DNA of 64,000 bases from the human T2T-CHM13v2.0 reference genome, Homo sapiens (GCA_009914755.4 CP086569.2:42080001-42144000); one strand, 5' to 3'; numbered from the stretch's first letter, positions 1 to 25,431 are shown. The notes: a model not told the origin generated them from the sequence alone. Numbers and translations are program-made.

Positions 1-435
1 ATGGAATGGAATGGAATGCATTGGAATGGAATGTCCGCTAATGGAATGGATTCGAGTGGAATGGAATTGAATATAATGGAGTCGAATGAAATGGAATTGA
101 AAGGAATGGGATCGAATACAATGGAATATACTGGAATGTAACGTAATGAACTGGAATGTAATTGACTGGAATGGAATGTACATGAATGGAATGTAATCGA
201 ATGGAAAGTAATCCAATGGAATAGAATCTTATGCAATAAAATCGACTCAGATAGAGTAGAATGTAATGGAATGGAGTGCAGTGCAATGGAATGGAATGGA
301 ATGGAATGCAATGGAATGGAATGGAATGGAATGGAATGGAATGGAATGGGATGGAATGGTATGGAATGGATAGTAATGGACTGGAGTGAAATGGACTGGA
401 AAGGAATGGACTCAAATTGAAAGGGCTCGAAAGGA
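1..435 (+). repeat. HOR unit 0 (partial, 3' portion of a unit). Contains the variable pure (GGAAT)n run.
   Basis: Matches the last ~435 bp of every later unit (e.g. 3590-4024). 'tgcattggaatggaatgtccgctaatgg' at 17-44 equals 3591-3618. Confidence 0.85.
311..345 (+). repeat. Variable pure (GGAAT)n run inside the HOR: 7 perfect pentamers in this copy
   Basis: 'atgga' x7 between 'gaatgc' (305-310) and 'atggg atgga atggt' (346-360). Confidence 0.8.
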
Positions 436-3400: not shown

Positions 3401-4024
3401 TGGAGTAGATGGGATTGGATGGGATTGGAATGAAATGTACTGGAAAGGACTCGAATTTCATGAAACGGAATGGAATGAATTGGAACGGAATTGACTCGAA
3501 TGGAATGGAATGTCATGGGATGGCATCAAATGGAATGACATCAAATGGAATGGAATCGAATGCAATGGAATGCTATGGAATGGAATGGAATGCATTGGAA
3601 TGGAATGTCCGCTAATGGAATGGATTCGAGTGGAATGGAATTGAATATAATGGAGTCGAATGAAATGGAATTGAAAGGAATGGGATCGAATACAATGGAA
3701 TATACTGGAATGTAACGTAATGAACTCGAATGTAATTGACTGGAATGGAATGTACATGAATGGAATGTAATCGAATGGAAAGTAATCCAATGGAATAGAA
3801 TCTAATGCAATAAAATCGACTCAGATAGAGTAGAATGTAATGGAATGGAGTGCAGTGCAATGGAATGGAATGGAATGGAATGCAATGGAATGGAATGGAA
3901 TGGAATGGAATGGAATGGAATGGAATGGAATGGAATGGGATGGAATGGTATGGAATGGATAGTAATGGACTGGAGTGAAATGGACTGGAAAGGAATGGAC
4001 TCAAATTGAAAGGGCTCGAAAGGA
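436..4024 (+). repeat. HOR unit 1 (3589 bp), subtype A
   Basis: Anchor recurrence 436->4025. A-form 'ggaatcgaacggaatggaatcgaacggaatggactcg' at ~1663-1699. Confidence 0.85.
3885..3934 (+). repeat. The same variable (GGAAT)n run in the next copy: 10 perfect pentamers
   Basis: 'atgga' x10 at 3885-3934, then 'atggg' at 3935-3939. This 15-bp excess explains the 3589-bp unit. Confidence 0.8.
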
Positions 4025-7000
4025 ATGGAGTCAAATGGAATGGTCTGGAATGGAATGAACACGAATGTAATGCAACCCAATAGAATGGAATCGAATGGCA
4101 TGGAATATAAAGAAATGGAATCGAAGAGAATGGAAACAAATGGAATGGAATTGAATGGAATGGAATTGAATGGAATGGGAACGAATGGAGTGAAATTGTA
4201 TGCAGTAGAAGAGAATAGAATGGAATGCAAGCGAAAGGAAAGGAATGGATTGGAATGGAATGGAATTCATTGGAATGGAAGGGAATGTAGTGTAATGGAC
4301 AGGCCTGGAATAAAGTGGAATGCTACGGTCTCGAATGGAATAAAAATGTATGGAATGGAATGCAATGAAACGGAATCGAATGTCATAGAATGTAATGGAA
4401 TGCAAAAAAATGGAATCCAAAATCACTGACTGGAGAGGCTGGGTGTCGAAAGGAATTGACTCCAATGGAATGGAATCGAATGGAATGGAAGTGAATAGAA
4501 TCGAACTAAATCGAATGGAATGGAATTGATAGGAACGGAATGGAAAGGAATGCAATGATTTGGCATGGAATGGAATCGAATGGCATCGAATGGAATGGAA
4601 TGGAATGCAATGGAATGGAATGTATTAGAATGTAATGAACTTTAATGGAATGTACTCGAATGGATTCGACTGGAATGGAATGTTCTGGAAGTGAATGGAC
4701 TCCAATGGAATGGATTCAAAAGGAATGGAATCGTACGGAATGGAATCTAATGGAATGGAATTAAATGGAAATGAATCAAATTGAATAGCACGGAATTGAA
4801 TTGAATGGAATGGAATGCAATGGAATCTAATGAAACGGAAAGGAAAGGAATGGAATGGAATGGAATGGGCTGGAATGGATAGGAATCGAAACGAATGGAA
4901 TGGAATCGAAGTGAAGAGACTGTAATGGAATGCACTGGAATGGAAGGGAGTGTAATGGAAGGCTCTCGAAAAAAATGGAATCGAATGGAATGGAATTGAA
5001 TGGAACGGAATAGAGTCGAATGGAATTGAATGGAATGGAATGGACTAGAGTGAAATGGAATCGAACCACAAGGAATGGACAGGAATAGAATGGTCTCGAA
5101 TTGAATGGAATCGTATGGAATGCAATCAAACGGAATGGAATGGACAGCCACGGAATGGAATGCACTCGAATGCAATGGAGTCGAAACTAATGGACTGGAA
5201 TAGAATGGACTCGACTGGTACGGACTCCAATGGAATGGAATCGAATGGAAGGGAATCGAACGGAATGGAATCGAACGGAATGGACTCGAAGGGAAAAGAC
5301 TGCAATGGAAAGGTCTCGAATGGAATGGAAATTAATGGAATGGAATGGAATCGAATGAAATGGAGTCAAAAGGAATGGAATCGAATGGCAAGAAATCGAA
5401 TGTAATGGAATCGCCAGGAATTGATGTGAACGGAACGGAATGGAATGGAATCCAAAGGAATGGAATAGAATGGAATGGAATCGAATGGAAAGGACTCGAA
5501 TGGAAATCACTCGAATAGAATGCAATTTAATAAAATAGGATCAAATGTAATGGAATGGAATGGAAAGGAATCGAAACGAAAGGAATGGAGACAGATGGAA
5601 TGGAATGGAACAGAGAGCAATGGTATAGAATGGAATGGAATCATCTGGAATGGAATTGAATGGAATGGAATAATATGAAATGGAATGGAATGGAATGGAA
5701 TGGAATGCCCTTGAATTAAATGGACTGGAATGGAATGGACTCAAACAGAGTGGAATGGAAAGTGTGGAGATAGAATGGAATGAACTCCTTTGGAATGGTG
5801 TAGTATGCAATGCAATCGACTGGCAGGGAATCAAAAGGAATGTAATCGAATGGATTGGACTGGAATGCAATGGACTCGAATAGATTGGAAACGGAATGCA
5901 AAGGAATGGAATGGAATAGTATGGAATGCAATGGAAGGGAATGGAGTGGAATAGACTAGAGTGGAATGGAATGGACTGGAAAGCAATGGACTGGAATGGA
6001 ACTTTCTTGGATGGACTGGAATCAAACGGAATGGAATGCAGTGCAATCAAATGGCATGGAATAAAATAGAATGAAAGAGAATCAAATGGAATTGAATCGA
6101 ATGGAATCGAATGGATTGGAAAGGAATAGAATGGAATGGAATGGAATTGACTCAAATGGAATGGACTAGAATGGAATGGATTCGAATGGAAGGCAAAGGA
6201 ATGGAATCTATTGGAATGGACTGTAATGGAATGGAATGGAAGGGATTGGAATGGACTCGAATGGAATGGACTGCAATAGAAAGGATTCGAATGGAATGAA
6301 AAAGAATTGAATGGAATAGAACAGAATGGAATCAAATCGAATGAAATGGAATGGAATAGAAAGGAATGGAATGAAATGGAATGGAAAGGATTCGAATGGA
6401 ATGCAATCGAATGGAATGGAATCGAACGGAATGGAATAAAATGGAAGAAAACTGGCAAGAAATGGAATCGAAATGAATGGAGTGTTATGGAACGGACTCA
6501 AAAGGAATTGAATGTAATAGAATGGAGTGGAGTGGACTCGAATATAATGGACTGGAATGGAATGAAATCACATGGAATGGGAACGAATGGAATGGAATGG
6601 AAAGGAATGGAATCGAATGGAAAGGAATCGAATGGAAGGGAATGAAATTGAATCAACACGAATGGAAGGGAATAGAATAGACTGTAATGGAATGGACTCG
6701 AATAGAATGGACACGAATGCTCAAATTAAATGGACTCGAATGGAATGGAAACGAAAGGAATGTCATCGAATGGAATTGAATCGATTGGAATGAAATCGCA
6801 TAGAATGGAGTGGAATCAAATGGAATTGAATCGAAAGGAAAGGAAGCGAATGGACTGAAATGAAATGGAATGGAATTGAATGGAAAGTAATGCAATGGAA
6901 TAGAATGGAACGAAATTTCACGGAATGGAATCAAACTGAATGGAATCAAATCAATGGAATCAAATCAAATGGAATGGAAAGGAATTGAATGGAGTAGATT

Positions 7001-7588
7001 GGATTGGATGGGATTGGAATGAAATGTACTGGAAAGGACTCGAATTTCATGAAACGGAATGGAATGAATTGGAACGGAATGGACTCGAATGGAATGGAAT
7101 GTCATGGGATGGCATCAAATGGAATGACATCAAATGGAATGGAATCGAATGCAATGGAATGCTATGGAATGGAATGGAATGCATTGGAATGGAATGTCCT
7201 CTAATGGAATGGATTCGAGTGGAATGGATTTGAATATAATGGAGTCGAATGAAATGGAATTGAAAGGAATGGGATCGAATACAATGGAATATACAGGAAT
7301 GTAACGTAATGAACTCGAATGTAATTGACTGCAATGGAATGTACATGAATGGAATGTAATCGAATGGAAAGTAATCCAATGGAATAGAATCTAATGCAAT
7401 AAAATCGACTCAGATAGAGTAGAATGTAATGGAATGGAGTGCAGTGCAATGGAATGGAATGGAATGGAATGCAATGGAATGGAATGGAATGGGATGGAAT
7501 GGGATGGAATGGTATGGAATGGATAGTAATGGACTGGAGTGAAATGGACTGGAAAGGAATGGACTCAAATTGAAAGGGCTCGAAAGGA
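4025..7588 (+). repeat. HOR unit 2 (3564 bp), subtype A
   Basis: Anchor recurrence 4025->7589. A-form at ~5252-5288. Tail segment (~6.94 kb onward) carries private variants shared with unit 5. Confidence 0.85.
7474..7508 (+). repeat. The same variable run in the third copy: 3 perfect pentamers plus a duplicated 'atgggatgga' motif
   Basis: 'atgga' x3 (7474-7488), then 'atggg atgga atggg atgga' (7489-7508). Confidence 0.75.
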
Positions 7589-10500
7589 ATGGAGTCAAAT
7601 GGAATGGTCTGGAATGGAATGAACACGAATGTAATGCAACCCAATAGAATGGAATCGAATGGCATGGAATATAAAGAAATGGAATCGAAGAGAATGGAAA
7701 CAAATGGAATGGAATTGAATGGAATGGAATTGAATGGAATGGGAACGAATGGAGTGAAATTGTATGCAGTAGAAGAGAATAGAATGGAATGCAAGCGAAA
7801 GGAAAGGAATGGATTGGAATGGAATGGAATTCATTGGAATGGAAGGGAATGTAGTGTAATGGACAGGCCTGGAATAAAGTGGAATGCTACGGTCTCGAAT
7901 GGAATAAAAATGTATGGAATGGAATGCAATGAAACGGAATCGAATGTCATAGAATGTAATGGAATGCAAAAAAATGGAATCCAAAATCATTGACTGGAAA
8001 GGCTGGGTGTCGAAAGGAATTGACTCCAATGGAATGGAATCGAATGGAATGGAAGTGAATAGAATCGAACTAAATCGAATGGAATGGAATTGATAGGAAC
8101 GGAATGGAAAGGAATGCAATGATTTGGCATGGAATGGAATCGAATGGCATCGAATGGAATGGAATGGAATGCATGGAATGGAATGTATTAGAATGTAATG
8201 AACTTTAATGGAATGTACTCGAATGGATTCGACTGGAATGGAATGTTCTGGAAGTGAATGGACTCCAATGGAATGGATTCAAAAGGAATGGAATCGTACG
8301 GAATGGAATCTAATGGAATGGAATTAAATGGAAATGAATCAAATTGAATAGCACGGAATTGAATTGAATGGAATGGAATGCAATGGAATCTAATGAAACG
8401 GAAAGGAAAGGAATGGAATGGAATGGAATGGGCTGGAATGGAAAGGAATCGAAACGAATGGAATGGAATCGAAGTGAAGAGACTGGAATGGAATGCACTG
8501 GAATGGAAGGGAGTGTAATGGAAGGTTCTCGAAAAAAATGGAATCGAATGGAATGGAATTGAATGGAACGGAATAGAGTCGAATGGAATTGAATGGAATG
8601 GAATGGACTAGAGTGAAATGGAATCGAACCACAAGGAATGGACAGGAATAGAATGGTCTCGAATTGAATGGAATCGTATGGAATGGCATCAAACGGAATG
8701 GAATGGACAGCCACGGAATGGAATGCACTCGAATGCAATGGAGTCGAAACTAATGGACTGGAATAGAATGGACTCGACTGGTACGGACTCCAATGGAATG
8801 GAATCGAATGGAAGGGAATCGAACGGAATGGAATCGAACGGAATGGACTCGAAGGGAAAAGACTGCAATGGAAAGGTCTCGAATGGAATGGAAATTAATG
8901 GAATGGAATGGAATCGAATGAAATGGAGTCAAAAGGAATGGAATCGAATGGCAAGAAATCGAATGTAATGGAATCGCCAGGAATTGATGTGAACGGAACG
9001 GAATGGAATGGAATCCAAAGGAATGGAATAGAATGGAATGGAATCGAATGGAAAGGACTCGAATGGAAATCACTCGAATAGAATGCAATTTAATAAAATA
9101 GGATCAAATGTAATGGAATGGAATGGAAAGGAATCGAAACGAAAGGAATGGAGACAGATGGAATGGAATGGAACAGAGAGCAATGGTATAGAATGGAATG
9201 GAATCATCTGGAATGGAATTGAATGGAATGGAATAATATGAAATGGAATGGAATGGAATGGAATGGAATGCCCTTGAATTAAATGGACTGGAATGGAATG
9301 GACTCAAACAGAGTGGAATGGAAAGTGTGGAGATAGAATGGAATGAACTCCTTTGGAATGGTGTAGTATGCAATGCAATCGACTGGCAGGGAGTCAAAAG
9401 GTATGTAATCGAATGGATTGGACTGGAATGCAAAGGACTCGAATAGATTGGAAACGGAATGCAAAGGAATGGAATGGAATAGTATGGAATGCAATGGAAG
9501 GGAATGCAGTGGAATAGACTAGAGTGGAATGGAATGGACTGGAAAGCAATGGACTGGAATGGAACTTTCTTGGATGGACTGGAATCAAACGGAATGGAAT
9601 GCAGTGCAATCAAATGGCATGGAATAAAATAGAATGAAAGAGAATCAAATGGAATTGAATCGAATGGAATCGAATGGATTGGAAAGGAATAGAATGGAAT
9701 GGAATGGAATTGACTCAAATGGAATGGACTAGAATGGAATGGATTCGAATGGAAGGCAAAGGAATGGAATCTATTGGAATGGACTGTAATGGAATGGAAT
9801 GGAAGGGATTGGAATGGACTCGAATGGAATGGACTGCAATAGAAAGGATTCGAATGGAATGAAAAAGAATTGAATGGAATAGAACAGAATGGAATCAAAT
9901 CGAATGAAATGGAATGGAATAGAAAGGAATGGAATGAAATGGAATGGAAAGGATTCGAATGGAATGCAATCGAATGGAATGGAATCGAACGGAATGGAAT
10001 AAAATGGAAGAAAACTGGCAAGAAATGGAATCGAAATGAATGGAGTGTTATGGAACGGACTCAAAAGGAATTGAATGTAATAGAATGGAGTGGAGTGGAC
10101 TCGAATATAATGGACTGGAATGGAATGAAATCACATGGAATGGGAACGAATGGAATGGAATGGAAAGGAATGGAATCGAATGGAAAGGAATCGAATGGAA
10201 GGGAATGAAATTGAATCAACAGGAATGGAAGGGAATAGAATAGACTGTAATGGAATGGACTCGAATAGAATGGACACGAATGCTCAAATTAAATGGACTC
10301 GAATGGAATGGAAACGAAAGGAATGTCATCGAATGGAATTGAATCGATTGGAATGAAATCGCATAGAATGGAGTGGAATCAAATGGAATTGAATCGAAAG
10401 GAAAGGAAGCGAATGGACTGAAATGAAATGGAATGGAATTGAATGGAAAGTAATGCAATGGAATAGAATGGAACGAAATTTCACGGAATGGAATCAAACT

Positions 10501-11176
10501 GAATGGAATCAAATCAATGGAATCAAATCAAATGGAATGGAAAGGAATTGAATGGAGTAGATGGGATTGGATGGGATTGGAATGAAATATACTGGAAAGG
10601 ACTCGAATTTCATGAAACGGAATGGAATGAATTGGAACGGAATGGACTCGAATGGAATGGAATGTCATGGGATGGCATCAAATGGAATGACATCAAATGG
10701 AATGGAATCGAATGCAATGGAATGCTATGGAATGGAATGGAATGCATTGGAATGGAATGTCCGCTAATGGAATGGATTCGAGTGGAATGGAATTGAATAT
10801 AATGGAGTCGAATGAAATGGAATTGAAAGGAATGGGATCGAATACAATGGAATATACTGGAATGTAACGTAATGAACTCGAATGTAATTGACTGGAATGG
10901 AATGTACATGAATGGAATGTAATCGAATGGAAAGTAATCCAATGGAATAGAATCTAATGCAATAAAATCGACTCAGATAGAGTAGAATGTAATGGAATGG
11001 AGTGCAGTGCAATGGAATGGAATGGAATGGAATGCAATGGAATGGAATGGAATGGAATAGAATGGAATGGAATGGAATGGGATGGAATGGGATGGAATGG
11101 TATGGAATGGATAGTAATGGACTGGAGTGAAATGGACTGGAAAGGAATGGACTCAAATTGAAAGGGCTCGAAAGGA
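7589..11176 (+). repeat. HOR unit 3 (3588 bp), subtype A. Carries a 1-bp deletion shared with unit 6.
   Basis: Anchor recurrence. 'gaatgcatggaatgg' at 8166-8180 versus 'gaatgcaatggaatgg' in other copies. Confidence 0.85.
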
Positions 11177-14100
11177 ATGGAGTCAAATGGAATGGTCTGG
11201 AATGGAATGAACACGAATGTAATGCAACCCAATAGAATGGAATCGAATGGCATGGAATATAAAGAAATGGAATCGAAGAGAATGGAAACAAATGGAATGG
11301 AATTGAATGGAATGGAATTGAATGGAATGGGAACGAATGGAGTGAAATTGTATGCAGTAGAAGAGAATAGAATGGAATGCAAGCGAAAGGAAAGGAATGG
11401 ATTGGAATGGAATGGAATTCATTGGAATGGAAGGGAATGTAGTGTAATGGACAGGCCTGGAATAAAGTGGAATGCTACGGTCTCGAATGGAATAAAAATG
11501 TATGGAATGGAATGCAATGAAACGGAATCGAATGTCATAGAATGTAATGGAATGCAAAAAAATGGAATCCAAAATCATTGACTGGAAAGGCTGGGTGTCG
11601 AAAGGAATTGACTCCAATGGAATGGAATCGAATGGAATGGAAGTGAATAGAATCGAACTAAATCGAATGGAATGGAATTGATAGGAACGGAATGGAAAGG
11701 AATGCAATGATTTGGCATGGAATGGAATCGAATGGCATCGAATGGAATGGAATGGAATGCAATGGAATGGAATGTATTAGAATGTAATGAACTTTAATGG
11801 AATGTACTCGAATGGATTCGACTGGAATGGAATGTTCTGGAAGTGAATGGACTCCAATGGAATGGATTCAAAAGGAATGGAATCGTACGGAATGGAATCT
11901 AATGGAATGGAATTAAATGGAAATGAATCAAATTGAATAGCACGGAATTGAATTGAATGGAATGGAATGCAATGGAATCTAATGAAACGGAAAGGAAAGG
12001 AATGGAATGGAATGGAATGGGCTGGAATGGAAAGGAATCGAAACGAATGGAATGGAATCGAAGTGAAGAGACTGGAATGGAATGCACTGGAATGGAAGGG
12101 AGTGTAATGCAAGGTTCTCGAAAAAAATGGAATCGAATGGAATGGAATTGAATGGAACGGAATAGAGTCGAATGGAATTGAATGGAATGGAATGGACTAG
12201 AGTGAAATGGAATCGAACCACAAGGAATGGACAGGAATAGAATGGTCTCGAATTGAATGGAATCGTATGGAATGGCATCAAACGGAATGGAATGGACAGC
12301 CACGGAATGGAATGCACTCGAATGCAATGGAGTCGAAACTAATGGACTGGAATAGAATGGACTCGACTGGTACGGACTCCAATGGAATGGAATCGAATGG
12401 AAGGGAATCGAACGGAATGGACTCGAAGGGAAAAGACTGCAATGGAAAGGTCTCGAATGGAATGGAAATTAATGGAATGGAATGGAATCGAATGAAATGG
12501 AGTCAAAAGGAATGGAATCGAATGGCAAGAAATCGAATGTAATGGAATCGCCAGGAATTGATGTGAACGGAACGGAATGGAATGGAATCCAAAGGAATGG
12601 AATAGAATGGAATGGAATCGAATGGAAAGGACTCGAATGGAAATCACTCGAATAGAATGCAATTTAATAAAATAGGATCAAATGTAATGGAATGGAATGG
12701 AAAGGAATCGAAACGAAAGGAATGGAGACAGATGGAATGGAATGGAACAGAGAGCAATGGTATAGAATGGAATGGAATCATCTGGAATGGAATTGAATGG
12801 AATGGAATAATATGAAATGGAATGGAATGGAATGGAATGGAATGCCCTTGAATTAAATGGACTGGAATGGAATGGACTCAAACAGAGTGGAATGGAAAGT
12901 GTGGAGATAGAATGGAATGAACTCCTTTGGAATGGTGTAGTATGCAATGCAATCGACTGGCAGGGAATCAAAAGGAATGTAATCGAATGGATTGGACTGG
13001 AATGCAATGGACTCGAATAGATTGGAAACGGAATGCAAAGGAATGGAATGGAATAGTATGGAATGCAATGGAAGGGAATGGAGTGGAATAGACTAGAGTG
13101 GAATGGAATGGACTGGAAAGCAATGGACTGGAATGGAACTTTCTTGGATGGACTGGAATCAAACGGAATGGAATGCAGTGCAATCAAATGGCATGGAATA
13201 AAATAGAATGAAAGAGAATCAAATGGAATTGAATCGAATGGAATCGAATGGATTGGAAAGGAATAGAATGGAATGGAATGGAATTGACTCAAATGGAATG
13301 GACTAGAATGGAATGGATTCGAATGGAAGGCAAAGGAATGGAATCTATTGGAATGGACTGTAATGGAATGGAATGGAAGGGATTGGAATGGACTCGAATG
13401 GAATGGACTGCAATAGAAAGGATTCGAATGGAATGAAAAAGAATTGAATGGAATAGAACAGAATGGAATCAAATCGAATGAAATGGAATGGAATAGAAAG
13501 GAATGGAATGAAATGGAATGGAAAGGATTCGAATGGAATGCAATCGAATGGAATGGAATCGAACGGAATGGAATAAAATGGAAGAAAACTGGCAAGAAAT
13601 GGAATCGAAATGAATGGAGTGTTATGGAACGGACTCAAAAGGAATTGAATGTAATAGAATGGAGTGGAGTGGACTCGAATATAATGGACTGGAATGGAAT
13701 GAAATCACATGGAATGGGAACGAATGGAATGGAATGGAAAGGAATGGAATCGAATGGAAAGGAATCGAATGGAAGGGAATGAAATTGAATCAACACGAAT
13801 GGAAGGGAATAGAATAGACTGTAATGGAATGGACTCGAATAGAATGGACACGAATGCTCAAATTAAATGGACTCGAATGGAATGGAAACGAAAGGAATGT
13901 CATCGAATGGAATTGAATCGATTGGAATGAAATCGCATAGAATGGAGTGGAATCAAATGGAATTGAATCGAAAGGAAAGGAAGCGAATGGACTGAAATGA
14001 AATGGAATGGAATTGAATGGAAAGTAATGCAATGGAATAGAATGGAACGAAATTTCACGGAATGGAATCAAACTGAATGGAATCAAATCAATGGAATCAA

Positions 14101-14750
14101 ATCAAATGGAATGGAAAGGAATTGAATGGAGTAGATGGGATTGGATGGGATTGGAATGAAATGTACTGGAAAGGACTCGAATTTCATGAAACGGAATGGA
14201 ATGAATTGGAACGGAATGGACTCGAATGGAATGGAATGTCATGGGATGGCATCAAATGGAATGACATCAAATGGAATGGAATCGAATGCAATGGAATGCT
14301 ATGGAATGGAATGGAATGCATTGGAATGGAATGTCCGCTAATGGAATGGATTCGAGTGGAATGGAATTGAATATAATGGAGTCGAATGAAATGGAATTGA
14401 AAGGAATGGGATCGAATACAATGGAATATACTGGAATGTAACGTAATGAACTCGAATGTAATTGACTGGAATGGAATGTACATGAATGGAATGTAATCGA
14501 ATGGAAAGTAATCCAATGGAATAGAATCTAATGCAATAAAATCGACTCAGATAGAGTAGAATGTAATGGAATGGAGTGCAGTGCAATGGAATGGAATGGA
14601 ATGGAATGCAATGGAATGGAATGGAATGGAATGGAATGGAATGGAATGGAATGGGATGGAATGGGATGGAATGGTATGGAATGGATAGTAATGGACTGGA
14701 GTGAAATGGACTGGAAAGGAATGGACTCAAATTGAAAGGTCTCGAAAGGA
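11177..14750 (+). repeat. HOR unit 4 (3574 bp), subtype B (15-bp deletion form)
   Basis: Anchor recurrence. 'ggaatcgaacggaatggactcg' at ~12404-12425 lacks one 'aatcgaacggaatgg' copy. 'gtaatgcaaggttctcg' at ~12104. Confidence 0.85.
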
Positions 14751-17700
14751 ATGGAGTCAAATGGAATGGTCTGGAATGGAATGAACACGAATGTAATGCA
14801 ACCCAATAGAATGGAATCGAATGGCATGGAATATAAAGAAATGGAATCGAAGAGAATGGAAACAAATGGAATGGAATTGAATGGAATGGAATTGAATGGA
14901 ATGGGAACGAATGGAGTGAAATTGTATGCAGTAGAAGAGAATAGAATGGAATGCAAGCGAAAGGAAAGGAATGGATTGGAATGGAATGGAATTCATTGGA
15001 ATGGAAGGGAATGTAGTGTAATGGACAGGCCTGGAATAAAGTGGAATGCTACGGTCTCGAATGGAATAAAAATGTATGGAATGGAATGCAATGAAACGGA
15101 ATCGAATGTCATAGAATGTAATGGAATGCAAAAAAATGGAATCCAAAATCATTGACTGGAAAGGCTGGGTGTCGAAAGGAATTGACTCCAATGGAATGGA
15201 ATCGAATGGAATGGAAGTGAATAGAATCGAACTAAATCGAATGGAATGGAATTGATAGGAACGGAATGGAAAGGAATGCAATGATTTGGCATGGAATGGA
15301 ATCGAATGGCATCGAATGGAATGGAATGGAATGCAATGGAATGGAATGTATTAGAATGTAATGAACTTTAATGGAATGTACTCGAATGGATTCGACTGGA
15401 ATGGAATGTTCTGGAAGTGAATGGACTCCAATGGAATGGATTCAAAAGGAATGGAATCGTACGGAATGGAATCTAATGGAATGGAATTAAATGGAAATGA
15501 ATCAAATTGAATAGCACGGAATTGAATTGAATGGAATGGAATGCAATGGAATCTAATGAAACGGAAAGGAAAGGAATGGAATGGAATGGAATGGGCTGGA
15601 ATGGAAAGGAATCGAAACGAATGGAATGGAATCGAAGTGAAGAGACTGGAATGGAATGCACTGGAATGGAAGGGAGTGTAATGCAAGGTTCTCGAAAAAA
15701 ATGGAATCGAATGGAATGGAATTGAATGGAACGGAATAGAGTCGAATGGAATTGAATGGAATGGAATGGACTAGAGTGAAATGGAATCGAACCACAAGGA
15801 ATGGACAGGAATAGAATGGTCTCGAATTGAATGGAATCGTATGGAATGGCATCAAACGGAATGGAATGGACAGCCACGGAATGGAATGCACTCGAATGCA
15901 ATGGAGTCGAAACTAATGGACTGGAATAGAATGGACTCGACTGGTACGGACTCCAATGGAATGGAATCGAATGGAAGGGAATCGAACGGAATGGACTCGA
16001 AGGGAAAAGACTGCAATGGAAAGGTCTCGAATGGAATGGAAATTAATGGAATGGAATGGAATCGAATGAAATGGAGTCAAAAGGAATGGAATCGAATGGC
16101 AAGAAATCGAATGTAATGGAATCGCCAGGAATTGATGTGAACGGAACGGAATGGAATGGAATCCAAAGGAATGGAATAGAATGGAATGGAATCGAATGGA
16201 AAGGACTCGAATGGAAATCACTCGAATAGAATGCAATTTAATAAAATAGGATCAAATGTAATGGAATGGAATGGAAAGGAATCGAAACGAAAGGAATGGA
16301 GACAGATGGAATGGAATGGAACAGAGAGCAATGGTATAGAATGGAATGGAATCATCTGGAATGGAATTGAATGGAATGGAATAATATGAAATGGAATGGA
16401 ATGGAATGGAATGGAATGCCCTTGAATTAAATGGACTGGAATGGAATGGACTCAAACAGAGTGGAATGGAAAGTGTGGAGATAGAATGGAATGAACTCCT
16501 TTGGAATGGTGTAGTATGCAATGCAATCGACTGGCAGGGAATCAAAAGGAATGTAATCGAATGGATTGGACTGGAATGCAATGGACTCGAATAGATTGGA
16601 AACGGAATGCAAAGGAATGGAATGGAATAGTATGGAATGCAATGGAAGGGAATGGAGTGGAATAGACTAGAGTGGAATGGAATGGACTGGAAAGCAATGG
16701 ACTGGAATGGAACTTTCTTGGATGGACTGGAATCAAACGGAATGGAATGCAGTGCAATCAAATGGCATGGAATAAAATAGAATGAAAGAGAATCAAATGG
16801 AATTGAATCGAATGGAATCGAATGGATTGGAAAGGAATAGAATGGAATGGAATGGAATGGACTCAAATGGAATGGACTAGAATGGAATGGATTCGAATGG
16901 AAGGCAAAGGAATGGAATCTATTGGAATGGACTGTAATGGAATGGAATGGAAGGGATTGGAATGGACTCGAATGGAATGGACTGCAATAGAAAGGATTCG
17001 AATGGAATGAAAAAGAATTGAATGGAATAGAACAGAATGGAATCAAATCGAATGAAATGGAATGGAATAGAAAGGAATGGAATGAAATGGAATGGAAAGG
17101 ATTCGAATGGAATGCAATCGAATGGAATGGAATCGAACGGAATGGAATAAAATGGAAGAAAACTGGCAAGAAATGGAATCGAAATGAATGGAGTGTTATG
17201 GAACGGACTCAAAAGGAATTGAATGTAATAGAATGGAGTGGAGTGGACTCGAATATAATGGACTGGAATGGAATGAAATCACATGGAATGGGAACGAATG
17301 GAATGGAATGGAAAGGAATGGAATCGAATGGAAAGGAATCGAATGGAAGGGAATGAAATTGAATCAACACGAATGGAAGGGAATAGAATAGACTGTAATG
17401 GAATGGACTCGAATAGAATGGACACGAATGCTCAAATTAAATGGACTCGAATGGAATGGAAACGAAAGGAATGTCATCGAATGGAATTGAATCGATTGGA
17501 ATGAAATCGCATAGAATGGAGTGGAATCAAATGGAATTGAATCGAAAGGAAAGGAAGCGAATGGACTGAAATGAAATGGAATGGAATTGAATGGAAAGTA
17601 ATGCAATGGAATAGAATGGAACGAAATTTCACGGAATGGAATCAAACTGAATGGAATCAAATCAATGGAATCAAATCAAATGGAATGGAAAGGAATTGAA

Positions 17701-18309
17701 TGGAGTAGATTGGATTGGATGGGATTGGAATGAAATGTACTGGAAAGGACTCGAATTTCATGAAACGGAATGGAATGAATTGGAACGGAATGGACTCGAA
17801 TGGAATGGAATGTCATGGGATGGCATCAAATGGAATGACATCAAATGGAATGGAATCGAATGCAATGGAATGCTATGGAATGGAATGGAATGCATTGGAA
17901 TGGAATGTCCTATAATGGAATGGATTCGAGTGGAATGGAATTGAATATAATGGAGTCGAATGAAATGGAATTGAAAGGAATGGGATCGAATACAATGGAA
18001 TATACAGGAATGTAACGTAATGAACTCGAATGTAATTGACTGGAATGGAATGTACATGAATGGAATGTAATCGAATGGAAAGTAATCCAATGGAATAGAA
18101 TCTAATGCAATAAAATCGACTCAGATAGAGTAGAATGTAATGGAATGGAGTGCAGTGCAATGGAATGGAATGGAATGGAATGCAATGGAATGGAATGGAA
18201 TGGAATGGAATGGAATGGAATGGGATGGAATGGTATGGAATGGATAGTAATGGACTGGAGTGAAATGGACTGGAAAGGAATGGACTCAAATTGAAAGGGC
18301 TCGAAAGGA
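14751..18309 (+). repeat. HOR unit 5 (3559 bp), subtype B
   Basis: Anchor recurrence. Same 15-bp deletion form at ~15978. Tail shares variants with unit 2 ('gtagattggattgg' ~17704, 'tatacaggaatg' ~18001). Confidence 0.85.
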
Positions 18310-21300
18310 ATGGAGTCAAATGGAATGGTCTGGAATGGAATGAACACGAATGTAATGCAACCCAATAGAATGGAATCGAATGGCATGGAATATAAAGAAA
18401 TGGAATCGAAGAGAATGGAAACAAATGGAATGGAATTGAATGGAATGGAATTGAATGGAATGGGAACGAATGGAGTGAAATTGTATGCAGTAGAAGAGAA
18501 TAGAATGGAATGCAAGCGAAAGGAAAGGAATGGATTGGAATGGAATGGAATTCATTGGAATGGAAGGGAATGTAGTGTAATGGACAGGCCTGGAATAAAG
18601 TGGAATGCTACGGTCTCGAATGGAATAAAAATGTATGGAATGGAATGCAATGAAACGGAATCGAATGTCATAGAATGTAATGGAATGCAAAAAAATGGAA
18701 TCCAAAATCATTGACTGGAAAGGCTGGGTGTCGAAAGGAATTGACTCCAATGGAATGGAATCGAATGGAATGGAAGTGAATAGAATCGAACTAAATCGAA
18801 TGGAATGGAATTGATAGGAACGGAATGGAAAGGAATGCAATGATTTGGCATGGAATGGAATCGAATGGCATCGAATGGAATGGAATGGAATGCATGGAAT
18901 GGAATGTATTAGAATGTAATGAACTTTAATGGAATGTACTCGAATGGATTCGACTGGAATGGAATGTTCTGGAAGTGAATGGACTCCAATGGAATGGATT
19001 CAAAAGGAATGGAATCGTACGGAATGGAATCTAATGGAATGGAATTAAATGGAAATGAATCAAATTGAATAGCACGGAATTGAATTGAATGGAATGGAAT
19101 GCAATGGAATCTAATGAAACGGAAAGGAAAGGAATGGAATGGAATGGAATGGGCTGGAATGGAAAGGAATCGAAACGAATGGAATGGAATCGAAGTGAAG
19201 AGACTGGAATGGAATGCACTGGAATGGAAGGGAGTGTAATGGAAGGTTCTCGAAAAAAATGGAATCGAATGGAATGGAATTGAATGGAACGGAATAGAGT
19301 CGAATGGAATTGAATGGAATGGAATGGACTAGAGTGAAATGGAATCGAACCACAAGGAATGGACAGGAATAGAATGGTCTCGAATTGAATGGAATCGTAT
19401 GGAATGGCATCAAACGGAATGGAATGGACAGCCACGGAATGGAATGCACTCGAATGCAATGGAGTCGAAACTAATGGACTGGAATAGAATGGACTCGACT
19501 GGTACGGACTCCAATGGAATGGAATCGAATGGAAGGGAATCGAACGGAATGGAATCGAACGGAATGGACTCGAAGGGAAAAGACTGCAATGGAAAGGTCT
19601 CGAATGGAATGGAAATTAATGGAATGGAATGGAATCGAATGAAATGGAGTCAAAAGGAATGGAATCGAATGGCAAGAAATCGAATGTAATGGAATCGCCA
19701 GGAATTGATGTGAACGGAACGGAATGGAATGGAATCCAAAGGAATGGAATAGAATGGAATGGAATCGAATGGAAAGGACTCGAATGGAAATCACTCGAAT
19801 AGAATGCAATTTAATAAAATAGGATCAAATGTAATGGAATGGAATGGAAAGGAATCGAAACGAAAGGAATGGAGACAGATGGAATGGAATGGAACAGAGA
19901 GCAATGGTATAGAATGGAATGGAATCATCTGGAATGGAATTGAATGGAATGGAATAATATGAAATGGAATGGAATGGAATGGAATGGAATGCCCTTGAAT
20001 TAAATGGACTGGAATGGAATGGACTCAAACAGAGTGGAATGGAAAGTGTGGAGATAGAATGGAATGAACTCCTTTGGAATGGTGTAGTATGCAATGCAAT
20101 CGACTGGCAGGGAGTCAAAAGGTATGTAATCGAATGGATTGGACTGGAATGCAAAGGACTCGAATAGATTGGAAACGGAATGCAAAGGAATGGAATGGAA
20201 TAGTATGGAATGCAATGGAAGGGAATGCAGTGGAATAGACTAGAGTGGAATGGAATGGACTGGAAAGCAATGGACTGGAATGGAACTTTCTTGGATGGAC
20301 TGGAATCAAACGGAATGGAATGCAGTGCAATCAAATGGCATGGAATAAAATAGAATGAAAGAGAATCAAATGGAATTGAATCGAATGGAATCGAATGGAT
20401 TGGAAAGGAATAGAATGGAATGGAATGGAATTGACTCAAATGGAATGGACTAGAATGGAATGGATTCGAATGGAAGGCAAAGGAATGGAATCTATTGGAA
20501 TGGACTGTAATGGAATGGAATGGAAGGGATTGGAATGGACTCGAATGGAATGGACTGCAATAGAAAGGATTCGAATGGAATGAAAAAGAATTGAATGGAA
20601 TAGAACAGAATGGAATCAAATCGAATGAAATGGAATGGAATAGAAAGGAATGGAATGAAATGGAATGGAAAGGATTCGAATGGAATGCAATCGAATGGAA
20701 TGGAATCGAACGGAATGGAATAAAATGGAAGAAAACTGGCAAGAAATGGAATCGAAATGAATGGAGTGTTATGGAACGGACTCAAAAGGAATTGAATGTA
20801 ATAGAATGGAGTGGAGTGGACTCGAATATAATGGACTGGAATGGAATGAAATCACATGGAATGGGAACGAATGGAATGGAATGGAAAGGAAAGGAATCGA
20901 ATGGAAGGGAATGAAATTGAATCAACACGAATGGAAGGGAATAGAATAGACTGTAATGGAATGGACTCGAATAGAATGGACACGAATGCTCAAATTAAAT
21001 GGACTCGAATGGAATGGAAACGAAAGGAATGTCATCGAATGGAATTGAATCGATTGGAATGAAATCGCATAGAATGGAGTGGAATCAAATGGAATTGAAT
21101 CGAAAGGAAAGGAAGCGAATGGACTGAAATGAAATGGAATGGAATTGAATGGAAAGTAATGCAATGGAATAGAATGGAACGAAATTTCACGGAATGGAAT
21201 CAAACTGAATGGAATCAAATCAATGGAATCAAATCAAATGGAATGGAAAGGAATTGAATGGAGTAGATGGGATTGGATGGGATTGGAATGAAATGTACTG

Positions 21301-21862
21301 GAAAGGACTCGAATTTCATGAAACGGAATGGAATGAATTGGAACGGAATGGACTCGAATGGAATGGAATGTCATGGGATGGCATCAAATGGAATGACATC
21401 AAATGGAATGGAATCGAATGCAATGGAATGCTATGGAATGGAATGGAATGCATTGGAATGGAATGTCCGCTAATGGAATGGATTCGAGTGGAATGGAATT
21501 GAATATAATGGAGTCGAATGAAATGGAATTGAAAGGAATGGGATCGAATACAATGGAATATACTGGAATGTAACGTAATGAACTCGAATGTAATTGACTG
21601 GAATGGAATGTACATGAATGGAATGTAATCGAATGGAAAGTAATCCAATGGAATAGAATCTAATGCAATAAAATCGACTCAGATAGAGTAGAATGTAATG
21701 GAATGGAGTGCAGTGCAATGGAATGGAATGGAATGGAATGCAATGGAATGGAATGGAATGGAATGGGATGGAATGGGATGGAATGGTATGGAATGGATAG
21801 TAATGGACTGGAGTGAAATGGACTGGAAAGGAATGGACTCAAATTGAAAGGTCTCGAAAGGA
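18310..21862 (+). repeat. HOR unit 6 (3553 bp), subtype A. Near-copy of unit 3.
   Basis: Anchor recurrence. 'tgcatgg' 1-bp deletion at 18901-18907. Shares the 'gtcaaaaggtatgtaatcg'/'gaatgcaaaggactcg' variants with unit 3 (9393/20114). Confidence 0.85.
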
Positions 21863-24800
21863 ATGGAGTCAAATGGAATGGTCTGGAATGGAATGAACAC
21901 GAATGTAATGCAACCCAATAGAATGGAATCGAATGGCATGGAATATAAAGAAATGGAATCGAAAAGAATGGAAACAAATGGAATGGAATTGAATGGAATG
22001 GAATTGAATGGAATGGGAACGAATGGAGTGAAATTGTATGCAGTAGAAGAGAATAGAATGGAATGCAAGCGAAAGGAAAGGAATGGATTGGAATGGAATG
22101 GAATTCATTGGAATGGAAGGGAATGTAGTGTAATGGACAGGCCTGGAATAAAGTGGAATGCTACGGTCTCGAATGGAATAAAAATGTATGGAATGGAATG
22201 CAATGAAACGGAATCGAATGTCATAGAATGTAATGGAATGCAAAAAAATGGAATCCAAAATCATTGACTGGAAAGGCTGGGTGTCGAAAGGAATTGACTC
22301 CAATGGAATGGAATCGAATGGAATGGAAGTGAATAGAATCGAACTAAATCGAATGGAATGGAATTGATAGGAACGGAATGGAAAGGAATGCAATGATTTG
22401 GCATGGAATGGAATCGAATGGCATCGAATGGAATGGAATGGAATGCAATGGAATGGAATGTATTAGAATGTAATGAACTTTAATGGAATGTACTCGAATG
22501 GATTCGACTGGAATGGAATGTTCTGGAAGTGAATGGACTCCAATGGAATGGATTCAAAAGGAATGGAATCGTACGGAATGGAATCTAATGGAATGGAATT
22601 AAATGGAAATGAATCAAATTGAATAGCACGGAATTGAATTGAATGGAATGGAATGCAATGGAATCTAATGAAACGGAAAGGAAAGGAATGGAATGGAATG
22701 GAATGGGCTGGAATGGAAAGGAATCGAAACGAATGGAATGGAATCGAAGTGAAGAGACTGGAATGGAATGCACTGGAATGGAAGGGAGTGTAATGCAAGG
22801 TTCTCGAAAAAAATGGAATCGAATGGAATGGAATTGAATGGAACGGAATAGAGTCGAATGGAATTGAATGGAATGGAATGGACTAGAGTGAAATGGAATC
22901 GAACCACAAGGAATGGACAGGAATAGAATGGTCTCGAATTGAATGGAATCGTATGGAATGGCATCAAACGGAATGGAATGGACAGCCACGGAATGGAATG
23001 CACTCGAATGCAATGGAGTCGAAACTAATGGACTGGAATAGAATGGACTCGACTGGTACGGACTCCAATGGAATGGAATCGAATGGAAGGGAATCGAACG
23101 GAATGGACTCGAAGGGAAAAGACTGCAATGGAAAGGTCTCGAATGGAATGGAAATTAATGGAATGGAATGGAATCGAATGAAATGGAGTCAAAAGGAATG
23201 GAATCGAATGGCAAGAAATCGAATCTAATGGAATCGCCAGGAATTGATGTGAACGGAACGGAATGGAATGGAATCCAAAGGAATGGAATAGAATGGAATG
23301 GAATCGAATGGAAAGGACTCGAATGGAAATCACTCGAATAGAATGCAATTTAATAAAATGGGATCAAATGTAATGGAATGGAATGGAAAGGAATTGAAAC
23401 GAAAGGAATGGAGACAGATGGAATGGAATGGAACAGAGAGCAATGGTATAGAATGGAATGGAATCATCTGGAATGGAATTGAATGGAATGGAATAATATG
23501 AAATGGAATGGAATGGAATGGAATGGAATGCCCTTGAATTAAATGGACTGGAATGGAATGGACTCAAACAGAGTGGAATGGAAAGTGTGGAGATAGAATG
23601 GAATGAACTCCTTTGGAATGGTGTAGTATGCAATGCAATCGACTGGCAGGGAATCACAAGGAATGTAATCGAATGGATTGGACTGAAATGCAATGGACTC
23701 GAATAGATTGGAAACGGAATGCAAAGGAATGGAATGGAATAGTATGGAATGCAATGGAAGGGAATGGAGTGGAATAGACTAGAGTGGAATGGAATGGACT
23801 GGAAAGCAATGGACTGGAATGGAACATTCTTGGATGGACTGGAATCAAACGGAATGGAATGCAATGCAATCAAATGGCATGGAATAAAATAGAATGAAAG
23901 AGAATCAAATGGAATTGAATCGAATGGAATCGAATGGATTGGAAAGGAATAGAATGGAATGGAATGGAATTGACTCAAATGGAATGGACTAGAATGGAAT
24001 GGATTCGAATGGAAGGCAAAGGAATGGAATCTATTGGAATGGACTGTAATGGAATGGAATGGAAGGGATTCGAATGGACTCGAATGGAATGGACTGCAAT
24101 AGAAAGGATTCGAATGGAATGAAAAAGAATTGAATGGAATAGAACAGAATGGAATCAAATCGAATGAAATGGAATGGAATAGAAAGGAATGGAATGAAAT
24201 GGAATGGAAAGGATTCGAATGGAATGCAATCGAATGGAATGGAATCGAACGGAATGGAATAAAATGGAAGAAAACTGGCAAGAAATGGAATCGAAATGAA
24301 TGGAGTGTTATGGAACGGACTCAAAAGGAATTGAATGTAATAGAATGGAGTGGAGTGGACTCGAATATAATGGACTGGAATGGAATGAAATCACATGGAA
24401 TGGGAACGAATGGAATGGAATGGAAAGGAATGGAATCGAATGGAAAGGAATCGAATGGAAGGAAATGAAATTGAATCAACACGAATGGAAGGGAATAGAA
24501 TAGACTGTAATGGAATGGACTCGAATAGAATGGACACGAATGCTCAAATTAAATGGACTCGAATGGAATGGAAACGAAAGGAATGTCATCGAATGGAATT
24601 GAATCGATTGGAATGAAATCGCATAGAATGGAGTGGAATCAAATGGAATTGAATCGAAAGGAAAGGAAGCGAATGGACTGAAATGAAATGGAATGGAATT
24701 GAATGGAAAGTAATGCAATGGAATAGAATGGAACGAAATTTCACGGAATGGAATCAAACTGAATGGAATCAAATCAATGGAATCAAATCAAATGGAATGG

Positions 24801-25431
24801 AAAGGAATTGAATGGAGTAGATGGGATTGGATGGGATTGGAATGAAATGTACTGGAAAGGACTCGAATTTCATGAAACGGAATGGAATGAATTGGAACGG
24901 AATGGACTCGAATGGAATGGAATGTCATGGGATGGCATCAAATGGAATGGCATCAAATGGAATGGAATCGAATGCAATGGAATGCTATGGAATGGAATGG
25001 AATGCATTGGAATGGAATGTCCTCTAATGGAATGGATTCGAGTGGAATGGAATTGAATATAATGGAGTCGAATGAAATGGAATTGAAAGGAATGGGATCG
25101 AATACAATGGAATATACTGGAATGTAATGTAATGAACTCGAATGTAATTGACTGGAATGGAATGTACATGAATGGAATGTAATCGAATGGAAAGTAATCC
25201 AATGGAATAGAATCTAATGCAATAAAATCGACTCAGATAGAGTAGAATGTAATGGAATGGAGTGCAGTGCAAAGGAATGGAATGGAATGGAATGCAATGG
25301 AATGGAATGGAATGGAATGGAATGGAATGGAATGGAATGGAATGGGATGGAATGGTATGGAATGGATAATAATAGACTGGAGTGAAATGGACTGGAAAGG
25401 AATGGACTCAAATTGAAAGGGCTCGAAAGGA
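21863..25431 (+). repeat. HOR unit 7 (3569 bp), subtype B. First unit of the central 'ggaatggcatcaaatgg' domain.
   Basis: Anchor recurrence. 15-bp deletion form ~23100. 'ggaatggcatcaaatgg' at ~24946. Confidence 0.85.

What the first reader, a model, noticed from the sequence alone, without database searches (positions are those of the whole stretch)
6940..21210. Near-identical segments three units apart (about 6.9-10.4 kb and 17.6-21.1 kb)
Several private variants recur at an offset of ~10.71 kb, which is three units. 'gtagattggattgg' sits at ~6995 and ~17704, where the others have 'gtagatgggattgg'. 'tatacaggaatg' sits at ~7289 and ~18001, where the others have 'tatactggaatg'. The 1-bp deletion 'tgcatgg' is at 8170-8176 and 18901-18907. 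'gtcaaaaggtatgtaatcg' and 'gaatgcaaaggactcg' sit at ~9393-9432 and ~20114-20153. 'ttccattgc' and 'cattgcattcc'-type changes give the shared 'HCIPFHC' and 'ITYLLTP' strings in the minus-strand ORFs at 9104 and 19825. The copies in between lack these variants. This suggests either a remnant 3-unit (~10.7 kb) super-repeat or a gene-conversion tract copied between non-adjacent units.
Basis: seen in the sequence. Interest (0 to 1): 0.55.

Follow-up and report, generated by a model that had tools for sequence, protein, structure and literature searches.

The report
Copied tract within Y-chromosome DYZ1 satellite
Two repeat units that lie three units apart in a human Y-chromosome DYZ1 (HSat3) satellite array share a 2.7-kb perfectly identical stretch carrying their own mutations, which is the ordinary footprint of sequence copying between repeats and not a hidden three-unit super-repeat.

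Summary
The window holds 18 tandem ~3.57-kb units of a (GGAAT)n-derived satellite with the hallmarks of human Y DYZ1/HSat3A6. Units U3 (7176-10738) and U6 (17887-21444) share six derived variants found in no other unit and in none of 15-22 external DYZ1 copies. They also contain the longest exact repeat in the window, 7494-10170 = 18215-20891 (2,677 bp, offset 10,721). Over a full unit they differ by 6 substitutions and 2 indels, against 12-28 substitutions to every other unit.

"Near-identical over 3.5 kb" overstates it. Outside the core the two units are no closer to each other than to other units. One quoted "private variant" (gtagattggattgg) is the common DYZ1 allele. One coordinate is off by 10 bp.

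There is no array-wide 3-unit periodicity. Mean divergence rises smoothly with distance (18.6, 18.9, 19.6, 21.8, 23.0 events for offsets 1-5), and other recent copies sit at offsets of 1 and 2 units.

The best explanation is a local non-reciprocal copy between out-of-register units: intra-array gene conversion, or unequal sister-chromatid exchanges that were later eroded. This process is already documented for Yq12. It is ordinary and of low interest.

The parts
1..64000 (+). Tandem array of 18 units (U1-U18) of about 3.57 kb. It is a (GGAAT)n-derived satellite with the properties of human Y DYZ1 / HSat3A6. Unit starts are 13, 3587, 7176, 10739, 14313, 17887, 21445, 24999, 28568, 32147, 35716, 39295, 42874, 46323, 49882, 53441, 57025 and 60599.
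   Evidence: TRF finds pentamer-derived periods over the whole window. Anchor k-mers recur every 3449-3589 bp. There is one HaeIII GGCC site per unit, 38-40% GC and 1 CpG per 35 bp, matching the published DYZ1 description. DYZ1 PCR primers recalled from memory match exactly once per unit and delimit 154 bp.
7176..10738 (+). Unit U3, copy A of the variant unit.
   Evidence: Its nearest relative is U6 at 10 events. The next nearest units are at 19.
17887..21444 (+). Unit U6, copy B of the variant unit.
   Evidence: Its nearest relative is U3 at 10 events. The next nearest units are at 15.
7494..10170 (+). Core tract, copy A. It is 2,677 bp and 100% identical to 18215-20891. It carries the derived variants at 8172 (1-bp deletion), 9393 (A>G), 9402 (A>T), 9434 (T>A) and 9507 (G>C).
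   Evidence: It is the longest exact repeat in the window. The variants are absent from 15-22 external DYZ1 copies.
18215..20891 (+). Core tract, copy B. It carries the same five derived variants at 18893, 20114, 20123, 20155 and 20228.
7295..7295 (+). Sixth shared derived variant (T>A, 'tatacaggaatg'), matched by position 18006 in U6. It lies about 200 bp left of the exact core and is separated from it by private substitutions and the variable pentamer run.
   Evidence: External copies have T in 15 of 15.
7431..7520 (+). Hypervariable pentamer run that forms the left edge of the core. U3 has (GGAAT)3(GGGATGGAAT)2. U6 (about 18142-18241) has (GGAAT)7(GGGATGGAAT)1, the same as U1 and U17.
20887..20928 (+). 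Right edge of the tract in U6. It holds a private 15-bp slippage deletion (alignment columns 3022-3036, between direct 'ATGGAAAGGAAT' repeats). It also holds the first discordant marker at column 3077: U6 has C at 20928, and U3 has G at 10222, which is the external majority allele.
7000..7000 (+). T in 'gtagattggattgg' in the tail of U2, with its partner at 17711 in the tail of U5. It is the common DYZ1 allele, and the other units of this window carry a local G.
10739..17886 (+). Intervening units U4 and U5. They are near-identical to each other (4 events). Both carry a 15-bp deletion at columns 1670-1684 that is also shared with U7 and U8.

Best explanation
The window is a stretch of the human Y-chromosome Yq12 DYZ1 (HSat3A6) satellite.

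Shown directly:
- Units U3 and U6, 10.7 kb apart, carry a tract that is identical by descent.
- The tract has a 2,677-bp exact core.
- With flanking markers it spans about 3.2-5 kb.

Inferred:
- The tract arose by non-reciprocal copying between out-of-register repeat units during repair or sister-chromatid interaction. That means intra-array (interlocus) gene conversion, or the equivalent pair of closely spaced unequal exchanges.
- U3 is the likelier donor, because it keeps the longer distinctive haplotype.
- After the copy, each unit acquired a few private changes: 3 substitutions, pentamer-run slippage and a 15-bp slippage deletion.
- The 3-unit spacing is incidental. It reflects the register of one event, or the sum of a 2-unit and a 1-unit duplication.
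- The tract has no coding or regulatory function. The ORFs are translation artefacts of (ATTCC)n.

The confidence of 0.6 is for the patch or conversion reading specifically. The broader class, local homogenisation by conversion or unequal exchange in DYZ1, I put at about 0.93.
For: Identity of the array:
- The unit is 3.45-3.59 kb with a single HaeIII site, 38-40% GC, 1 CpG per 35 bp and a GGAAT pentamer base.
- These values match the published DYZ1 figures of about 3.5 kb, a modal 3,569-bp HaeIII fragment, 38% GC and 1 CpG per 35 bp.
- Matching contigs at 97-99% identity occur as human contamination in gut metagenomes and bacterial assemblies.

Identity by descent:
- Six derived variants are exclusive to U3 and U6, and 0 of 15-22 external copies carry them.
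- The 2,677-bp exact match is the longest in the window.
- In columns 348-3021 the U3/U6 distance is 0, against at least 7 to every other unit.

A patch rather than a block:
- The core is shorter than one unit and ends inside the unit on both sides.
- The flanks at the same offset carry 10-13 differences in 4.5 kb, giving P(0 in the core) = 0.0004-0.003.
- At column 3077 U3 has the external allele and U6 the local one, which marks the right boundary.

The process is known to operate here:
- 29% of de novo Yq12 SNVs match non-orthologous repeat copies and are attributed to interlocus gene conversion. About one whole-unit structural change occurs per Y transmission (PMC12240836).
- Sister-chromatid exchanges are seen in Yq12 (T2T-Y paper).
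Against: - A conversion tract of at least 2.7 kb is long compared with typical human conversion tracts (my own background knowledge).
- The shared variant at column 119 lies outside the exact core, beyond private substitutions. A single simple conversion therefore does not explain everything.
- The tails of U2, U4 and U5 are nearly identical to one another (pairwise 1-2 events). U7's head is closest to those of U5 and U4 (5 and 6 events). An older multi-unit duplication could have set up the relationship.
- Donor and recipient direction is inferred from only one or two markers.
- Human-Y origin rests on matching properties and on primers recalled from memory. No alignment to a reference Y was possible with these tools.
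Confidence: 0.6

Rival explanations
1. The pattern comes from tandem block duplication by unequal sister-chromatid exchange, later eroded. The most economical version has two steps. First, a 2-unit (7.1 kb) duplication of [tail of U2 - U3 - head of a D-class unit], with its junction at columns 1685-1990. This gives U2, U3, a hybrid unit H, U3' and U7. Second, a 1-unit duplication of H gives U4 and U5, which moves the two U3-type units three units apart. A direct 3-unit duplication followed by replacement of the U7 tail and U8 is a variant of the same idea.
For: - U2's tail is exactly identical to U4's tail over 1,733 bp from column 1685, and it differs from U5's tail at 1 site.
- The heads of U4, U5 and U7 share the derived 24G, 347G, 1376C and the 15-bp deletion.
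- U7 changes lineage between columns 1685 and 1990.
- U4 and U5 differ by only 4 events, so that duplication is younger than the U3/U6 split.
- Unequal exchange is the accepted mode of Yq12 evolution.
Against: - It needs extra events for discordant sites: 432 and 3418 in U4, and 3077 between U3 and U6.
- The core has 0 differences while the flanks of the supposed block have 10-13. A uniform age is rejected (P = 0.0004-0.003), so a later conversion of the core would still be needed.
- Similarity in the flanks is not specific to the offset-3 pairs.
- For the direct 3-unit version, U5/U8 and the U4/U7 tails are dissimilar.
Confidence: 0.3
2. The pattern is a remnant of a genuine 3-unit (~10.7 kb) higher-order super-repeat of DYZ1.
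For: The U3/U6 pair sits at offset 3. The three lowest offset-3 distances are the consecutive pairs U1/U4, U2/U5 and U3/U6, at 12, 12 and 10 events.
Against: - Mean divergence shows no dip at offsets 3 or 6.
- U4 is simply close to the consensus, and therefore to everything.
- U1/U4 and the U2/U5 heads differ at class-defining sites: 1376 and the 15-bp deletion.
- Doubleton sharing occurs at offsets 1, 2, 3, 4, 7 and 8.
- The long exact matches occur at offsets 1, 1, 1, 2, 2 and 3.
Confidence: 0.03
3. The pattern is an assembly artefact, in which a falsely duplicated or mis-joined segment of a nearly identical satellite created two copies of one real unit.
For: Satellite arrays are error-prone to assemble. 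An exact 2.7-kb match is what a false duplication would give.
Against: - The two units differ at 6 substitutions and 2 indels just outside the core, and they sit in different flanking contexts.
- A 10.7-kb spacing lies within single long reads (my own background knowledge).
- Equally clean adjacent pairs (U11/U12) show that such identity is normal here.
Confidence: 0.03
4. The same mutations arose independently in two units by chance or recurrent mutation.
For: One of the six, the 1-bp deletion in 'GCAATGG', could recur.
Against: - Six co-occurring derived changes, four of them transversions, sit on one pair out of 153. P is about 1e-6.
- The two units share 2,677 bp of perfect identity where other pairs differ at 7-18 sites.
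Confidence: 0.005

Closest known systems
Human DYZ1 / HSat3A6 satellite of Yq12 (Nakahori 1986; Altemose 2014; T2T-Y, Rhie 2023; Hallast 2023)
   Same: The unit is about 3.57 kb and derives from the GGAAT/CATTC pentamer. There is one HaeIII site per unit, with fragments around 3,569 bp. GC is 38-40% and there is 1 CpG per 35 bp. Units are more than 98% identical.
   Different: Nothing differs in kind. The window shows local variants that differ from the majority of external copies at about 9 sites, as expected for one array among many.
Interlocus (intra-array) gene conversion in Yq12 satellites, seen as de novo events in pedigrees (PMC12240836; PMC13252187)
   Same: A non-reciprocal transfer of variants between non-orthologous repeat copies on the same Y. 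Here the core tract is shorter than one repeat unit.
   Different: The pedigree events were detected as single or clustered SNVs, and the tract lengths were not reported in the passages I read. Here the tract is at least 2.7 kb, and it is inferred historically rather than observed de novo.
Unequal sister-chromatid exchange producing tandem duplications in satellite arrays (Smith 1976 model; T2T-Y Extended Data Fig. 8)
   Same: Nearly identical copies occur at integer-unit offsets. Adjacent near-identical pairs (U4/U5, U11/U12) are present in the same window.
   Different: A single exchange predicts an identity tract as long as the offset (10.7 kb). The observed specific identity is 2.7 kb, and at most about 5-7 kb with generous flanks.
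Higher-order repeats (HORs) of alpha satellite, e.g. the DYZ3 34-mer
   Same: The idea is the same: units a fixed number of repeats apart are more alike than neighbours are.
   Different: The periodicity test fails here. Only one pair shows the pattern, and divergence rises monotonically with distance.

Membership tests
DYZ1 / HSat3A6 (human Yq12) | Tandem unit of about 3.5-3.6 kb | tested here: met
   Seventeen unit lengths run from 3449 to 3589 bp, with a mode of 3574-3579. The published unit is about 3.5-3.6 kb.
DYZ1 / HSat3A6 (human Yq12) | One HaeIII (GGCC) site per unit, with a modal fragment of about 3,569 bp | tested here: met
   There are 18 GGCC sites. Fragments run from 3449 to 3589 bp, including two of exactly 3569 bp. 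The HaeIII digest criterion is described.
DYZ1 / HSat3A6 (human Yq12) | Derived from the pentamer GGAAT/CATTC, about 38% GC, about 1 CpG per 35 bp | tested here: met
   The five rotations of GGAAT are the top 5-mers. GC is 0.38-0.40 and there is 1 CpG per 35.1 bp, against the values.
DYZ1 / HSat3A6 (human Yq12) | Sequence identity to a reference DYZ1 consensus or Y-chromosome assembly, and alternation with DYZ2 blocks | not testable with these tools
   No human reference is available. Indirect support comes from DYZ1 154-bp PCR primers recalled from memory, which match exactly once per unit. Contigs at 97-99% identity also occur in human-gut metagenomes. The window contains no DYZ2.
Higher-order (3-unit) super-repeat | Divergence minima at offsets 3, 6 and 9 relative to offsets 1 and 2 | tested here: not met
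   Mean event distances are 18.6, 18.9, 19.6, 21.8, 23.0, 23.1, 23.8 and 23.8 for offsets 1-8.
Higher-order (3-unit) super-repeat | Position-specific variants shared by every third unit along the array | tested here: not met
   The variants occur in U3 and U6 only, and not in U9, U12, U15 or U18.
Gene conversion between repeat copies | An identity tract shorter than the distance between copies and not a whole number of units, with flanks of different ancestry | tested here: met
   The core is 2,677 bp (0.75 unit) at a 10,721-bp offset. Outside columns 348-3021 the two units are not nearest relatives. The core is significantly cleaner than the flanks.
Gene conversion between repeat copies | Non-reciprocity, with the donor left unchanged | not testable with these tools
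   This needs the pre-event haplotype, from related Y chromosomes or pedigrees.
Single unequal-exchange tandem duplication at a 3-unit register | An identity tract equal to the duplicated length (10.7 kb), covering U3-U5 against U6-U8 or an equivalent frame | tested here: not met
   U4/U7 differ by 16 events, 10 of them in the tail. U5/U8 differ by 22 events.
Two-step unequal exchange (2-unit then 1-unit duplication) | A hybrid unit whose head matches U7's head and whose tail matches U2's tail, with breakpoints at one common column | tested here: inconclusive
   The pattern is compatible, with breakpoints in columns 1685-1990. However, the matching flanks are not distinctive, and three sites (432, 3418, 3077) are discordant.

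The most novel reading that the evidence does not exclude
Long-tract (at least 2.7 kb) conversion between DYZ1 units might occur preferentially at a fixed ~10.7-kb (3-unit) register. Such a preference could reflect a physical periodicity of Yq12 heterochromatin, such as loop size or pairing register, rather than a one-off event. This window gives a single instance, so it neither supports nor strictly excludes a preferred register.
Probability: 0.03. Interest if true: 0.4.

Novelty: already known. Interest (0 to 1): 0.12.

Why it matters
It matters little beyond bookkeeping. It is a clean, base-level example of how DYZ1 units are homogenised locally: a sub-unit-length identical tract shared by non-adjacent units, next to very young adjacent duplications.

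Catalogued across a whole Yq12 assembly, such tracts could be used to estimate conversion tract lengths and the register distribution of sister-chromatid exchange. The phenomenon itself, gene conversion and unequal exchange in Yq12 satellites, is already documented from T2T assemblies and pedigrees.

There are two practical lessons. ORFs in this sequence are meaningless.

Tried and rejected
- Ungapped offset autocorrelation gave only the ~3,574-bp period. Indels blur longer offsets, so I switched to anchored units plus MAFFT.
- Raw difference counts that include gap columns made U3/U6 look unremarkable at 31 differences, because one 20-bp pentamer-run length difference and a 15-bp deletion dominate. 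Event-based counting corrected this.
- A search for long difference-free runs at all offsets with a 2.4-kb threshold returned only the U3/U6 core.
- Literature searches for the DYZ1 primer strings found nothing. The primer match therefore remains a memory-based lead.
- Simple k-mer counting of alleles in external contigs failed for three sites because of nearby differences. I replaced it with BLAST-based column mapping restricted to HSPs of at least 97% identity.
- External contigs are mostly short-read assemblies that collapse to a consensus, so they polarise alleles but cannot give true unit-level frequencies.
- I considered an offset-3 block extending from the U2 tail to the U4 head (about 7 kb). 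I rejected it as a single-age block, because the flanks carry 10-13 differences against 0 in the core and are not specifically similar.
- I ran no protein, RNA-family or structure tools. The ORFs are low-complexity (IPFHS)n-like translations of the satellite.

Full report
**What the window is**

Tandem Repeats Finder reports pentamer-derived periods (15, 25 and 45 bp; consensus ATGGA/GGAAT) over all 64 kb. Base composition is uniform at 38-40% GC with a strong G-over-C skew. Anchor k-mers recur 18 times at spacings of 3449-3589 bp. This defines units U1-U18, starting at 13, 3587, 7176, 10739, 14313, 17887, 21445, 24999, 28568, 32147, 35716, 39295, 42874, 46323, 49882, 53441, 57025 and 60599.

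Each unit has exactly one HaeIII site. CpG density is 1 per 35.1 bp. These values match the published description of the human Y-chromosome DYZ1 (HSat3A6) repeat of Yq12:
- a unit of about 3.5-3.6 kb derived from the pentamer CATTC;
- a modal HaeIII fragment of 3,569 bp;
- 38% GC and 1 CpG per 35 bp;
- units more than 98% identical.

Two DYZ1 PCR primers that I recalled from memory match exactly once per unit and delimit 154 bp. I could not find them in the paper library, so they count only as a lead.

A 62-bp pattern from the unit retrieved 42 contigs. Seven came from bacterial or archaeal assemblies and 35 from metagenomes, including ones labelled human gut. About half of them are 97-99% identical to the window consensus. 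This is the human-Y satellite contamination described in the T2T-Y paper. I cannot align the window to a human reference with these tools, so the identification is very well supported but indirect.

**Checking the observation**

The 'normal' versions occur in about 15 other units. One coordinate is wrong: the second 'tgcatgg' is at 18891, not 18901. The ORFs at 9104-10021(-) and 19825-20742(-) are identical and contain the quoted peptides. They are merely translations of (ATTCC)n.

Segment 6935-10497 against 17646-21203 has 6 substitutions and 2 indel events (99.83%). Against every other in-register segment, the two segments have 12-28 substitutions. So the stated refutation condition is not met.

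A stringent self-comparison gives the longest exact repeat in the whole window as 7494-10170 = 18215-20891, 2,677 bp at offset 10,721. Of the 23 variants carried by exactly two units, six fall on the U3/U6 pair. For any pair, P is about 1e-6 under random assignment.

**Refining the observation**

In a MAFFT alignment of the 18 units, the special relationship is confined to columns 348-3021. There the U3/U6 distance is 0, against 7-18 to all other units. In columns 0-347 and 3022-3593, U3 and U6 are not each other's nearest relatives.

The left edge of the core is a slippage-prone pentamer run. U3 has (GGAAT)3(GGGATGGAAT)2. U6 has (GGAAT)7(GGGATGGAAT)1, identical to U1 and U17. The right edge is a private 15-bp slippage deletion in U6, followed by a discordant marker at column 3077. 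One further shared derived variant, at column 119 (7295 and 18006), lies about 200 bp left of the core, beyond three private substitutions.

**Polarising the variants**

I used 12-22 external DYZ1 copies per column, restricted to BLAST HSPs at least 97% identical to the window consensus.
- The six U3/U6 variants are derived: 0 of 15-22 external copies carry them.
It is a retained common allele, and the other units of this window carry a local G.
- At column 3077, U3's G is the external allele and U6's C is the local one.

Caveat: most external contigs are short-read assemblies that collapse to a consensus. They polarise alleles but do not give true frequencies among units.

**Is there a 3-unit super-repeat?**

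No. Counting each substitution or indel as one event, the mean distance between units by offset is 18.6, 18.9, 19.6, 21.8, 23.0, 23.1, 23.8 and 23.8 for offsets 1-8. This is a smooth isolation-by-distance curve with no dip at 3 or 6.

Other young relationships sit at other registers:
- U11/U12 differ by 1 event and U4/U5 by 4 (offset 1).
- The U2 tail equals the U4 tail over 1,733 bp, and U12-13 equals U14-15 over 1,723 bp (offset 2).
- Doubleton sharing occurs at offsets 1, 2, 3, 4, 7 and 8.
- The variants are absent from U9, U12, U15 and U18.

**Mechanism**

A single unequal sister-chromatid exchange at a 3-unit register would leave 10.7 kb of offset-3 identity. That is not seen: U4/U7 differ by 16 events and U5/U8 by 22.

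The specific identity is a sub-unit-length core. That core is significantly cleaner than the 4.5 kb of flanks at the same offset, which carry 10-13 differences. P(0 in the core) is 0.0004-0.003.

This is the signature of a non-reciprocal patch. It could be intra-array gene conversion or two close unequal exchanges. U3 is the likelier donor, because it keeps the external-type alleles further to the right.

A wider and older relationship is possible. The tails of U2, U4 and U5 are nearly identical. The heads of U4, U5 and U7 share derived markers. U7 switches lineage at columns 1685-1990. All of this would follow from a 2-unit duplication of [U2 tail - U3 - D-class head], followed by a 1-unit duplication of the resulting hybrid unit, which would place the two U3-type units three apart. 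That history leaves three discordant sites (432, 3418, 3077) and would still need a later conversion to clean the core. I give it about 0.3 as the primary origin.

Both readings belong to the same known class of process. Pedigree sequencing shows:
- Yq12 mutates at about 3.9e-7 per bp per generation;
- 29% of the changes match non-orthologous copies and are attributed to interlocus gene conversion;
- about one whole-unit structural change occurs per Y transmission (PMC12240836; see also PMC13252187).

The T2T-Y paper reports sister-chromatid exchanges and evolution by unequal exchange in Yq12.

Using that rate as a rough clock (inference only), the 6 substitutions between U3 and U6 correspond to about 2,200 generations. 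The clean core corresponds to fewer than about 1,450 generations (95% bound), and U11/U12 to about 360.

**Comparison with known systems, and novelty**

The array meets every DYZ1 criterion that I could test. The higher-order-repeat criteria were tested and not met. The conversion criterion of a sub-unit tract with differently related flanks is met, but non-reciprocity cannot be tested here.

This is an ordinary instance of a documented process in a documented satellite. I rate it 'already known', with interest 0.12.

The most novel reading left open is a preferred ~10.7-kb register for long-tract conversion in Yq12. It rests on a single instance, and I give it a probability of about 0.03.

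Noticed in passing
window 42874-46322 (U13): This is a short 3,449-bp unit. It has a private 110-bp deletion (alignment columns 1647-1756) and a 25-bp deletion in the pentamer run that it shares with U14 and U15.
   Followed up: partly
window 35716-42873 (U11/U12) and 10739-17886 (U4/U5): These are adjacent unit pairs that differ by only 1 and 4 events. They are the youngest duplications in the window and are more alike than the U3/U6 pair overall.
   Followed up: yes
window about 23130-23435 (U7, alignment columns 1685-1990): There is a lineage switch inside U7. Its head matches U4/U5. Its tail carries variants shared with U9 and the external-type alleles at columns 2459 and 3545. U7-U14 keep the external G at column 3545, while U1-U6 and U15-U17 carry a local A. 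This suggests domain structure within the array.
   Followed up: partly
whole window, alignment columns 129, 1329, 1833, 2428, 2459, 3077, 3101, 3418 and 3545: At these nine sites the window's majority allele differs from the majority in external DYZ1 copies. They look like array-local variants.
   Followed up: partly
U4, U5, U7 and U8 (e.g. near window 12400, 15980, 23110, 26670), alignment columns 1670-1684: A 15-bp deletion of one copy of a GGGAATCGAACGGAA-type duplication is shared by these four units. It also appears in about one third of external copies, so it is either an old polymorphism or recurrent slippage.
   Followed up: no
U1/U2 (13-7175) versus U17/U18 (57025-64000): U17 and U18 repeat several head features of U1 and U2. 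These are G at column 24, pentamer-run lengths of 7 and 10, and G at column 3077 in both U1 and U17. This hints at a longer-range relationship of about 16 units (57 kb). U17 also has 12 private changes, the most of any unit.
   Followed up: no
L001, L002, L005, L006 (genome contigs) and L008-L042 (metagenome contigs): DYZ1 sequence sits in assemblies labelled Actinomadura cremea JCM 3308, Streptomyces kurssanovii JCM 4388, S. griseoincarnatus JCM 4381, Streptosporangium violaceochromogenes JCM 3281, several MAGs and gut metagenomes. This is human male DNA contamination of public records.
   Followed up: partly
window 9104-10021 (-) and equivalents in every unit: Long minus-strand ORFs of up to 305 aa are (IPFHS)n-like translations of (ATTCC)n and are not genes.
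   Followed up: yes
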